A stretch of DNA of 427 bases, from assembly GCF_003334405.1 (NCBI RefSeq), contig NZ_QOWM01000065.1. The stretch is one strand, 5' to 3'. Origin of the DNA: Escherichia coli (GTDB lineage Bacteria > Pseudomonadota > Gammaproteobacteria > Enterobacterales > Enterobacteriaceae). Below, one piece after another: positions 1 through 427 of this stretch. The notes beneath the pieces were generated by a model. It had not been told where the DNA came from. It made no database searches and saw only the letters and a program-made list of their open reading frames with translations. Within the stretch, counting starts at the first letter, position 1, and every line of letters begins with the position of its first letter. The position numbers and the translations under genes are program-made.

Positions 1-81
1 ACCATCACCGTTAACGCTGCTGGTAACGCGGAAAACACCGTCAAAAACATCGCATTTAACTATATTGTGAGGCTTGCATAA
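1..81 (+). CDS. stf: 3' end of a side tail fibre protein gene (5'-truncated by the window edge). Frame 1 reads [26 protein letters not shown] then stop at 79..81.
   Basis: Frame 1 is open from position 1 to TAA at 79..81. The C-terminal peptide ending ...[11 protein letters not shown] matches, from memory, the end of lambdoid side tail fibre proteins. A tail fibre assembly gene follows immediately downstream, which is the conserved stf-tfa order. The gene is absent from the ORF track only because it has no start inside the window. Confidence 0.8.
66..71 (+). promoter_or_regulatory. Shine-Dalgarno / ribosome-binding site for tfa (GTGAGG), located inside the last codons of the upstream tail fibre gene
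   Basis: The purine-rich GAGG core at 68..71 is 9 nt upstream of the ATG at 81, within the usual spacing for E. coli-type initiation. Called from sequence only. Confidence 0.55.
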
Positions 82-427
82 TGGCATTCAGAATGAGTGA
101 ACAACCACGGACCATAAAAATTTATAATCTGCTGGCCGGAACTAATGAATTTATTGGTGAAGGTGATGCATATATTCCGCCTCATACAGGTCTGCCAGCA
201 AACAGTACCGATATTGCACCGCCAGATATTCCGGCAGGCTTCGTGGCTGTTTTCAACAGTGATGAGGCATCGTGGCATCTCGTTGAAGATCATCGGGGTA
301 AAACGGTTTATGACGTAGCGTCAGGGGACGCGTTATTTATTTCTGAACTCGGTCCGTTACCGGAAAATGTTACCTGGTTATCGCCGGAAGGGGAGTTTCA
401 GAAGTGGAACGGCACAGCCTGGGTGAA
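81..427 (+). CDS. tfa: 5' part of a tail fibre assembly protein gene (3'-truncated; last complete codon ends at 425). N-terminal 115 aa: [115 protein letters not shown]
   Basis: ATG at 81..83 opens a frame with no stop to the window end. The N-terminus [51 protein letters not shown]... is recognisable from memory as the lambda Tfa family (lambda Tfa and the TfaE/TfaR/TfaQ-type paralogues of E. coli K-12 cryptic prophages). GAGG at 68..71 lies 9 nt upstream of the ATG. The gene is absent from the ORF track because its stop lies beyond the window. Confidence 0.9.

What the first reader, a model, noticed from the sequence alone, without database searches (positions are those of the whole stretch)
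60..293. The supplied ORF track misses both real genes and reports only an antisense ORF
Both genuine coding regions are truncated by the window edges, so a complete-ORF finder reports neither. The only tracked ORF (77 aa, minus strand) lies antisense inside tfa, and it also overlaps the last 22 nt of stf. Its translation is Cys-rich with no recognisable domain or motif. This is an annotation pitfall, not biology, but automated pipelines could mis-call a hypothetical protein here.
Basis: partly seen in the sequence, partly recalled or inferred. Interest (0 to 1): 0.2.

Follow-up and report, generated by a model that had tools for sequence, protein, structure and literature searches.

The report
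Chance antisense ORF inside phage tfa
The window holds the end of a lambda-type side tail fibre gene (stf) and the start of its assembly-chaperone gene (tfa); the only complete ORF, a 77-codon one on the opposite strand, is a by-product of tfa's codon choice and not a gene, although a few deposited genomes have annotated it under a false "integrase" name.

Summary
The only complete ORF of at least 60 aa is 60..293 on the minus strand (77 aa). The real genes run off the window edges: stf ends at 81, and tfa starts at 81 in a TAATG stop/start overlap. The window is 100% identical to E. coli prophages and 95.8% identical to phage lambda orf-314/orf-194.

The interpretation, an annotation pitfall rather than biology, is supported.
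- The ORF is no longer than chance predicts. Synonymous-codon resampling of Tfa gives P = 0.30 for 77 aa or more in this frame and 0.74 in any antisense frame.
- It matches no Pfam, PHROG or NCBIfam family.
- It has no Shine-Dalgarno motif and no promoter-like site upstream.
- All 7 of its Cys codons are the reverse complements of tfa GCA (Ala) or ACA (Thr) codons.
- 21 of 65 distinct near-identical alleles carry a stop at its codon 9. All 15 divergent homologues have 1 to 3 stops.
- dN/dS is 0.10-0.15 in the tfa frame and about 1 in the antisense frame. Given each allele's effect on Tfa, there is no excess of antisense-synonymous changes.

The pitfall has already happened. E. coli P12b lists this ORF as "Prophage DLP12 integrase" and does not list the intact tfa. 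The finding is ordinary and of low interest.

The parts
1..81 (+). 3' end of the side tail fibre gene stf: the last 26 codons plus the TAA stop at 79-81.
   Evidence: The frame-1 translation ends ...[11 protein letters not shown]. It matches the extreme C-terminus of phrog_295 'tail fiber protein', profile positions 769-794 of 794, at E = 1.1e-13. RefSeq annotates this CDS ending at L001 6081, which is window 81. In lambda it is orf-314, ending at 21973.
69..72 (+). GAGG, a Shine-Dalgarno-like motif 8 nt upstream of the tfa ATG and inside the end of stf. With the TAATG overlap it fits translational coupling of tfa to stf.
   Evidence: Read directly from the sequence. Coupling is an inference from the layout.
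81..427 (+). 5' 347 nt of the tail fibre assembly (chaperone) gene tfa. The ATG at 81-83 shares its A with the stf stop (TAATG). The window holds 115 of 193 codons.
   Evidence: The frame is open to the window end. It hits phrog_105 'tail fiber assembly' at E = 1.3e-59. The full-length copy in L001, 6081-6662, has Pfam Caudo_TAP at residues 72-192 with E = 1.4e-44. RefSeq names it 'tail fiber assembly protein'. It corresponds to lambda orf-194. This exact protein is seen on 638 contigs.
60..293 (-). 77-codon antisense ORF (ATG at 293-291, TAG at 62-60) in the codon-opposed frame of tfa. It is judged non-coding: a chance 'shadow' ORF.
   Evidence: Searches give the coordinates and frame. It has no family hits. 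Its length is expected by chance. It is not conserved. It shows no purifying selection. The 30 nt upstream of its ATG (TGACGCTACGTCATAAACCGTTTTACCCCG) contain no SD motif. No promoter-like site lies upstream of it.
267..269 (+). tfa codon 63 (GCA, Ala), which is antisense codon 9 (TGC, Cys). The common allele TCA (Ser) turns it into an antisense TGA stop.
   Evidence: G267T is present in 21 of 65 distinct close alleles. It changes Tfa A63S and the antisense ORF Cys to stop.
321..323 (+). tfa codon 81 (TCA), the first sense codon whose reverse complement is a stop. It is the in-frame stop that bounds the antisense ORF upstream. TTA codons follow at 333, 357 and 378.

Best explanation
The window is the junction of two well-known lambdoid prophage genes: the 3' end of stf (side tail fibre) and the 5' 60% of tfa (tail fibre assembly chaperone). 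The two are joined by a TAATG stop/start overlap.

The 77-codon minus-strand ORF is a chance 'shadow' ORF. It lies in the frame whose codons sit exactly opposite tfa's codons. In that frame a stop can arise only where tfa uses TTA, CTA or TCA, and tfa codons 1-80 happen to contain none of these. The ATG is the reverse complement of the conserved His71 codon CAT. The Cys residues are reverse complements of GCA (Ala) and ACA (Thr) codons. The ORF's sequence therefore changes passively with tfa's synonymous sites, and it is not a gene. It shows up as the sole 'tracked' ORF only because a complete-ORF finder cannot report genes cut by the window edges.

Shown here: the gene identities, the frame geometry, the chance expectation, the lack of conservation and the lack of selection. 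Inferred: that the ORF is not translated to any functional effect.
For: 1. Identity. The window is 100% identical to E. coli prophage loci, and a match occurs in 4441 of 5426 complete E. coli genomes. It is 95.8% identical to lambda 21893-22319. Annotation is, and family hits are.

2. Chance expectation. TTA, CTA and TCA together make up only 2.6% of lambda codons, and lambda has 37 antisense ORFs of at least 77 aa within 39.9 kb of CDS. In 5000 synonymous resamplings of Tfa, P(>= 77 aa) = 0.30 in this frame and 0.74 in any antisense frame.

3. No signals. The ORF has no Pfam, PHROG or NCBIfam family, no SD motif, no upstream promoter-like site and no Rfam match.

4. Not conserved. Of 65 distinct alleles at 95% nucleotide identity or more, 21 have a stop at codon 9. 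All 15 homologues at 73-94% nucleotide identity have 1-3 in-frame stops, while their Tfa N-terminus stays well conserved. A neutral simulation predicts stops in 23-30% of sequences at close divergence and 75-80% at far divergence, which matches.

5. Selection. NG86 dN/dS is 0.10-0.15 in the tfa frame and 0.93-1.01 in the antisense frame. Of the 23 alleles that are silent in Tfa, 21 change the antisense protein. Conditional on the effect in Tfa, antisense-synonymous alleles number 2/23 (expected 0.07-0.08, p about 0.5) and 8/24 (expected 0.23-0.30, p = 0.16-0.43). The ORF region does not differ from the rest of tfa (Fisher p = 1.0 for both classes).

6. Cys content. All 7 Cys derive from sense GCA or ACA codons.

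7. Annotation practice. None of the 17 phage records I inspected feature by feature (lambda and 15 divergent phages), and none of the listed RefSeq E. coli records, annotates a CDS on the minus strand here. The exact 77-aa sequence is absent from a collection of about 15 billion proteins, although the exact Tfa occurs on 638 contigs.
Against: No expression data could be consulted, so low-level antisense transcription or pervasive translation is not excluded. In the source prophage a minus-strand Mn-catalase gene ends 120 nt downstream of tfa, and the simple scan found no terminator-like site between them. Read-through antisense RNA is therefore possible.

Among close alleles, the antisense dN/dS in the ORF region (about 1.0) is lower than a naive uniform-omega simulation predicts (1.6-1.7). 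It is also lower than in the rest of tfa (1.99). This comes from roughly 2-fold lower synonymous diversity in the 5' part of tfa. That dip is centred on the stf/tfa junction, is deepest at 1-150 including the 59 nt outside the ORF, and has no step at the ORF boundaries. At deeper divergence the two regions are alike (0.98 versus 1.13). I therefore attribute the dip to the conserved junction and mosaic recombination history, but that attribution is an inference.

The 21 nonsense alleles share one mutation and may represent a single event.
Confidence: 0.95

Rival explanations
1. The ORF is a young, lineage-restricted antisense overlapping gene that arose by overprinting on tfa. It would be translated in the subset of lambda-like prophages where it is intact.
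For: The ORF is intact in 44 of 65 distinct close alleles, including lambda itself. Synonymous diversity in tfa is lower over the ORF than further 3'. Antisense overlapping genes restricted to Escherichia/Shigella have been reported in EHEC (PMC9927249).
Against: A nonsense allele at codon 9 segregates in 32% of near-identical alleles, and every more distant homologue is interrupted. There is no SD motif and no upstream promoter-like site. There is no excess of antisense-synonymous changes. The diversity dip extends outside the ORF. The ORF length is expected by chance. No term for tail fibre assembly or tfa appears in the 18 supplementary files of the E. coli antisense-OLG survey, and the three EHEC genes lie in yadF, yhbY and ehaG.
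Confidence: 0.02
2. The minus strand here produces a functional non-coding antisense RNA that modulates stf/tfa expression, for example by read-through from the convergent downstream gene. On this view the ORF is irrelevant.
For: A convergent minus-strand gene lies 120-130 nt downstream of tfa: Mn catalase in L001 and ea47 in lambda. The scan found no terminator-like site on the minus strand.
Against: There is no Rfam match at E <= 1. No promoter-like site on the minus strand lies upstream of the ORF start (293); the only one is a 9-of-12 site at 87..59, at the ORF's 3' end, and the site count is at the level of shuffled sequence. Third-position diversity rises to 0.15 across 300-360, so nothing beyond tfa coding is conserved there. 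The downstream cargo differs between lambda and this prophage, so any read-through would be incidental.
Confidence: 0.03
3. The ORF is an integrase fragment, as named in some GenBank records ('Prophage DLP12 integrase', 'Prophage integrase', 'integrase, partial').
For: These are the names that sources give to P0016, P0017, P0019 and P0020.
Against: Neither the window ORF, P0016 nor P0017 matches any recombinase profile. The only related protein with PF00589 is P0021. That protein is a chimeric ORF in which about 40 antisense-tfa codons run in frame into an unrelated tyrosine-recombinase fragment at a tfa truncation point corresponding to window 174. The integrase name is most simply explained as a label propagated from such chimeras.
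Confidence: 0.003

Closest known systems
Phage lambda stf (orf-401/orf-314) and tfa (orf-194) side tail fibre module
   Same: 95.8% nucleotide identity over the whole window. The gene order and the TAATG stop/start overlap are the same (orf-314 ends at 21973 and orf-194 starts at 21973). The PHROG and Pfam families are the same.
   Different: This is an allelic variant with 18 differences in 427 nt. The source is an E. coli prophage with different cargo downstream (Mn catalase in place of ea47) and a single uninterrupted 1023-codon tail fibre CDS where lambda's record has two ORFs, orf-401 and orf-314.
'Shadow' ORFs: long open frames on the strand opposite a real gene, especially in the codon-opposed frame
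   Same: Antisense stops require sense TTA, CTA or TCA, which are rare (2.6% of lambda codons). The length is within chance expectation. The amino-acid content mirrors the sense codons. The ORF is not conserved.
   Different: Nothing of substance. This is a typical example.
Lambda orf206b, a historic hypothetical CDS annotated antisense inside stf orf-401
   Same: It is an antisense ORF embedded in the same tail fibre module and is carried in the lambda RefSeq record as a 'hypothetical protein'.
   Different: It has a different location (20147-20767), length (206 aa) and frame. I did not analyse its conservation.
Experimentally supported antisense overlapping genes of E. coli O157:H7 (for example oloz0137, oloz4542, oloz5029; PMC9927249)
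   Same: These are ORFs of about 60-100 codons embedded antisense in annotated genes, restricted to Escherichia/Shigella.
   Different: Those have mapped transcription start sites, Ribo-seq signal and competitive-growth phenotypes of translation-arrest mutants. This ORF has none of these. It lacks an SD motif and a promoter, and natural nonsense alleles are common.

Membership tests
Tail fibre assembly protein Tfa (PHROG 105; Pfam Caudo_TAP PF02413) | Significant match to the family profiles | tested here: met
   The window's 115 aa hit phrog_105 at E = 1.3e-59, and the full protein hits it at 1.8e-100. Caudo_TAP matches residues 72-192 at E = 1.4e-44. The C-terminal 66 aa match Mu tail fibre assembly protein U, PDB 5YVQ, at E = 1e-9.
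Tail fibre assembly protein Tfa (PHROG 105; Pfam Caudo_TAP PF02413) | Located immediately downstream of, and co-oriented with, the tail fibre gene it serves | tested here: met
   stf ends and tfa starts at the same base (TAATG) in the window, in L001 and in lambda. The same arrangement holds in most of the 15 divergent phages.
Tail fibre assembly protein Tfa (PHROG 105; Pfam Caudo_TAP PF02413) | Chaperone activity needed for folding or assembly of the fibre | not testable with these tools
   Inferred from family membership only.
Lambda-type side tail fibre Stf, C-terminus | Match to the C-terminal end of tail fibre profiles | tested here: met
   The 26 aa match phrog_295 at positions 769-794 of 794, E = 1.1e-13. 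In L001 they form the end of a 1023-aa 'prophage tail fiber N-terminal domain-containing protein'.
Bona fide antisense overlapping protein-coding gene | ORF kept open across homologues of the mother gene, at least within its clade | tested here: not met
   21 of 65 close alleles have a stop at codon 9. All 15 divergent homologues have 1-3 stops.
Bona fide antisense overlapping protein-coding gene | Purifying selection detectable in its own frame, or suppressed synonymous rate in the mother gene confined to the overlap | tested here: not met
   Antisense dN/dS is 0.93-1.01. There is no excess of antisense-synonymous alleles. The synonymous-diversity dip is not co-extensive with the ORF, and the tfa synonymous difference pS of 0.70 at depth is close to saturation.
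Bona fide antisense overlapping protein-coding gene | Own expression signals (promoter, ribosome binding site) | tested here: not met
   No SD-like motif occurs in the 30 nt before the ATG. No promoter-like site lies upstream on the minus strand within the window or within 700 nt in L001. These are consensus scans only.
Bona fide antisense overlapping protein-coding gene | Evidence of transcription and translation (RNA-seq, Ribo-seq, MS) | not testable with these tools
   No expression data are available here. The lambda ribosome-profiling paper (Liu et al. 2013) is not in the held library. The supplements of the E. coli OLG survey contain no occurrence of the terms tail fiber assembly or tfa.
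Tyrosine recombinase / phage integrase (Pfam PF00589), the name given in some GenBank records | Match to the integrase catalytic-domain profile | tested here: not met
   The window ORF has no Pfam hit at E <= 10. It, P0016 and P0017 have no NCBIfam recombinase hit. Only the chimeric P0021 hits, and only in its non-tfa part, residues 44-121.

The most novel reading that the evidence does not exclude
The 77-codon ORF is a very recently born antisense gene, overprinted on the tfa N-terminal domain. It would be expressed from read-through transcription of the convergent downstream cargo gene, functional only in the ORF-intact subset of lambda-like prophages, and already lost by nonsense mutation in about a third of alleles.
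Probability: 0.02. Interest if true: 0.4.

Novelty: not a real feature. Interest (0 to 1): 0.06.

Why it matters
The biological content is minimal. stf and tfa are textbook lambdoid genes present in most E. coli genomes, and the antisense ORF is a chance by-product.

The practical value is for curation. The case shows how short windows or contig ends make complete-ORF finders report only the shadow ORF. The same ORF has entered public databases under a misleading 'integrase' name, in one genome (E. coli P12b) with the intact tfa missing from the gene list. The name probably spread from chimeric ORFs at tfa/integrase deletion junctions. Anyone counting 'integrases' or 'hypothetical proteins' in E. 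coli prophages should filter such entries.

Tried and rejected
1. Family searches of the 77-aa product (Pfam, PHROGs, NCBIfam) found nothing except a 12.5-bit noise hit to a radical-SAM maturase, against a cut-off of 720.

2. An Rfam scan of both strands at E <= 1 found nothing.

3. Promoter and terminator scans found only chance-level sites. These were a minus-strand promoter-like site at 87..59, at the wrong end of the ORF, and a weak plus-strand hairpin at 318-331 inside tfa.

4. Literature:
- The lambda ribosome-profiling paper could not be retrieved by DOI or by my guessed PMC id.
- Full-text searches for antisense or overlapping genes together with tail fibre assembly, or with tfaR, tfaQ or tfaE, gave no relevant paper.
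- The 18 supplementary files of the E. coli antisense-OLG survey contain no occurrence of tail fiber assembly or tfa. This is a weak negative, because the tables may use locus tags.
- A review of antisense proteins gave no usable statement on frame-specific stop depletion.

5. A naive uniform-omega simulation predicted an antisense dN/dS of 1.6-1.7, against about 1.0 observed. I considered this a possible sign of constraint. I rejected it after three checks: the conditional allele test, the region control at deeper divergence and the diversity profile.

6. The 'stf last 197 codons' control was computed in the wrong frame, as its translation check showed stops. It is disregarded.

7. A RefSeq record for E. 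coli P12b was not in the collection under the accession I tried. I could not compare the PGAP annotation of that locus.

Full report
**What is in the window**

The 427-nt window contains two plus-strand coding regions, both cut by the window edges.
- Frame 1 reads [26 protein letters not shown] and stops at TAA 79-81.
- The frame that begins at ATG 81-83 stays open for 115 codons to the end of the window.
- The stop and start share one base (TAATG). A GAGG motif lies 8 nt upstream of the ATG. This layout is typical of translationally coupled genes, which is an inference.

The complete-ORF lister reports four ORFs of at least 20 aa. Only one reaches 60 aa: 60..293 on the minus strand, 77 aa, ATG start. 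It lists neither real gene, because it omits ORFs that run off the ends. Every factual element of the finding is therefore correct, including the 22-nt overlap with stf (60..81). One nuance is that 21 nt of the ORF lie upstream of the tfa start, so it is not strictly inside tfa.

**Identity of the real genes**

- The window is 100% identical to prophage loci in three complete E. coli genomes, and a match occurs in 4441 of 5426 complete E. coli genomes.
- It is 95.8% identical to phage lambda 21893-22319.
- In the identical E. coli locus (L001), RefSeq annotates a 1023-aa 'prophage tail fiber N-terminal domain-containing protein' ending at the base where a 193-aa 'tail fiber assembly protein' starts.
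- In lambda the same positions are orf-314 (tail fibre, stf C-terminal half) and orf-194 (tfa).
- The 115 window residues hit PHROG 105 'tail fiber assembly' at E = 1.3e-59. The 26 stf residues hit the extreme C-terminus of PHROG 295 'tail fiber protein' at E = 1.1e-13.
- The full Tfa has Pfam Caudo_TAP at residues 72-192, E = 1.4e-44. Its C-terminal 66 residues match the solved Mu tail fibre assembly protein U, PDB 5YVQ.

**Anatomy of the antisense ORF**

The ORF's codons lie exactly opposite tfa's codons: sense position 3 pairs with antisense position 1, and position 2 pairs with position 2. In this frame an antisense stop can arise only where tfa uses TTA, CTA or TCA.
- tfa codons 1-80 contain none of these. 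The first is TCA at codon 81 (321-323), followed by TTA at 333, 357 and 378.
- The ATG is the reverse complement of the His71 codon CAT.
- All seven Cys codons are reverse complements of six GCA (Ala) codons and one ACA (Thr) codon. The 'Cys-rich' composition is therefore a mirror image of tfa's codon choice.
- The 30 nt upstream of the ATG (TGACGCTACGTCATAAACCGTTTTACCCCG) hold no Shine-Dalgarno-like motif.
- No promoter-like site lies upstream of the ORF on the minus strand, either in the window or within 700 nt in L001.
- The product matches no Pfam family even at E <= 10 and no PHROG. In NCBIfam it gives only a 12.5-bit noise hit against a 720-bit cut-off.
- Rfam finds nothing on either strand.

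**Is the ORF more than chance would give?**

No.
- In lambda, TTA, CTA and TCA together make up 2.6% of codons.
- Lambda's accepted genes (39.9 kb) contain 37 antisense ORFs of at least 77 aa, about 0.9 per kb.
- I kept the Tfa protein fixed and resampled its codons from lambda usage 5000 times. This gave an ORF of at least 77 aa in this frame in 30% of trials, and in any antisense frame in 74%.

**Conservation**

A scan of IMG/VR found 438 encoded relatives of Tfa, of which the best 80 were fetched.
- With L001 and lambda these give 82 loci. Eighty align without gaps over the whole window and give 65 distinct sequences, at 95% nucleotide identity or more.
- Among these, 44 keep the ORF and 21 (32%) carry G267T. 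That change turns Tfa Ala63 into Ser (GCA to TCA) and antisense Cys9 into a TGA stop.
- I then fetched 15 more distant homologues at 73-94% nucleotide identity: P1-like, P2-like, Gifsy-1/2-type, Fels-1, and Citrobacter and Erwinia phages. I codon-aligned their tfa genes to the window.
- The Tfa N-terminal 71 residues are clearly conserved, yet every one of the 15 has 1-3 stops in the antisense frame.
- A neutral simulation with selection on Tfa only predicts interruption in 23-30% of sequences at the close divergence and 75-80% at the far divergence. The data match this.
- None of the 17 phage records I inspected feature by feature annotates a minus-strand CDS here.

**Selection**

Nei-Gojobori dN/dS in the tfa frame:
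- 0.14-0.15 in the close set
- 0.10 in the divergent set

Nei-Gojobori dN/dS in the antisense frame:
- 0.93-1.01 in the close set
- 0.98 in the divergent set

At the allele level, 21 of the 23 alleles that are silent in Tfa change the antisense protein. Conditional on each allele's effect in Tfa, there is no excess of antisense-synonymous changes:
- Sense-synonymous alleles: 2/23 observed against 0.07-0.08 expected (p about 0.5).
- Sense-nonsynonymous alleles: 8/24 observed against 0.23-0.30 expected (p = 0.16-0.43).
- The ORF region does not differ from tfa codons 72-187, where the same frame is full of stops (Fisher p = 1.0 for both classes).

**A caveat I examined**

A naive uniform-omega simulation predicts an antisense dN/dS of 1.6-1.7, and the 3' control region of the close set gives 1.99. 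The value of about 1.0 over the ORF is therefore lower than both. The cause is roughly 2-fold lower synonymous diversity in the 5' part of tfa.

Third-position diversity is lowest at 1-150 (0.01-0.03). That stretch includes the 59 nt of stf outside the ORF. Diversity then climbs gradually to 0.15 at 300-360, with no step at either ORF boundary. At deeper divergence the two regions are alike (0.98 versus 1.13), and tfa synonymous sites are near saturation (pS = 0.70).

I attribute the dip to the conserved stf/tfa junction and to mosaic recombination history, not to the ORF. This attribution is an inference. The stf control was computed in the wrong frame and is disregarded.

**The pitfall has really happened**

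- The exact 77-aa sequence is absent from a collection of about 15 billion proteins, while the exact Tfa is seen on 638 contigs.
- A homology search nevertheless found seven called proteins.
- P0016 (77 aa, 99% identical) is 'Prophage DLP12 integrase' in E. coli P12b, CP002291.1. In that locus the gene list contains the antisense ORF and a 92-aa stf fragment but not tfa, even though an intact 191-codon tfa is present on the other strand.
- P0017 (71 aa) is 'Prophage integrase' in the O157:H7 records CP008805.1 and CP010304.1 (the source names strain SS52). It sits next to an IS element that truncates tfa.
- P0019 and P0020 are 'integrase, partial'. P0018 is a 'hypothetical protein'.
- None of P0016, P0017 or P0018 matches a recombinase profile.
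- The probable origin of the name is P0021 (135 aa, on 19 short metagenomic contigs). There the first roughly 40 antisense-tfa codons run in frame into an unrelated tyrosine-recombinase fragment (PF00589; NCBIfam hit at residues 44-121). The junction lies at a tfa truncation point that corresponds to window position 174.

**Comparison with known systems, and verdict**

The real content is already known: a lambda-type stf/tfa junction. The antisense ORF is a standard shadow ORF. Lambda's own record still carries a comparable historic one, orf206b, inside stf.

Experimentally supported antisense overlapping genes of EHEC have mapped transcription start sites, Ribo-seq signal and phenotypes, and lie in other genes (PMC9927249). 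This ORF fails every testable criterion for that class.

What remains untested is direct expression evidence. Read-through antisense transcription from the convergent downstream gene cannot be excluded, but it would not make the ORF a gene.

The feature is not real biology, and its interest is low (0.06). The residual probability of a young antisense gene is about 2%.

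Noticed in passing
window 60..293 (-); L084 3001-3234; L104/L105 2501-2716: Variants of the antisense ORF are deposited in GenBank as 'Prophage DLP12 integrase' (E. coli P12b, CP002291.1, where the intact tfa is missing from the gene list), as 'Prophage integrase' (O157:H7 records CP008805.1 and CP010304.1/SS52), and as 'integrase, partial'. None of the three tested (P0016, P0017, P0018) matches a recombinase profile.
   Followed up: yes
L085 2149-2556 (also L086-L088): A 135-aa chimeric ORF, P0021, occurs on 19 short metagenome contigs. About 40 antisense-tfa codons are fused in frame to a tyrosine-recombinase fragment (PF00589) at a tfa truncation point corresponding to window 174. 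A methyltransferase gene lies upstream. It is the likely seed of the false 'integrase' label.
   Followed up: partly
window 1-150 versus 300-360: Among 65 close alleles, third-codon-position diversity is very low across the stf/tfa junction (0.01-0.03) and rises about 5-fold further into tfa (0.15). This suggests a conserved junction, possibly a recombination linker between exchangeable fibre-tip and chaperone modules, or constraint from translational coupling.
   Followed up: partly
L002 1255-1875 (-), which is lambda 20147-20767: The lambda RefSeq record still annotates orf206b, a 206-aa 'hypothetical protein' lying antisense inside stf orf-401. It may be another shadow ORF of the same kind.
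   Followed up: no
L001 6370-6627 (-), partly in window 370-427: A second antisense ORF (85 aa, GTG start) lies in the 3' half of tfa, in a different frame class. Codon resampling gives P = 0.035 for that frame alone, which is unremarkable after allowing for three frames.
   Followed up: no
L001 6782-11744: Downstream of tfa this prophage carries, on the minus strand, a manganese catalase gene and a ferritin-like pseudogene where lambda has ea47. Beyond these lie a serine-recombinase gene and a second set of tail fibre and tfa genes in opposed orientations. This looks like a Pin-type invertible fibre segment from another prophage remnant.
   Followed up: no
window 145..318 (+) and 318-331 (+): A 57-aa plus-strand ORF lies in an alternative frame inside tfa, and a weak terminator-like hairpin with a T-run lies inside tfa. 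Both are at chance level (1 terminator-like site found against 0.7 expected).
   Followed up: partly
L104/L105 2135-3737: In the O157:H7 records CP008805.1 and CP010304.1 the homologous tfa is truncated to 176 aa by an IS element (HTH_Tnp_1 plus rve transposase genes). Precomputed Pfam hits there list a separate N-terminal family, Caudo_TAP_N (PF28596). My own Pfam scan of the full Tfa did not report that family.
   Followed up: no
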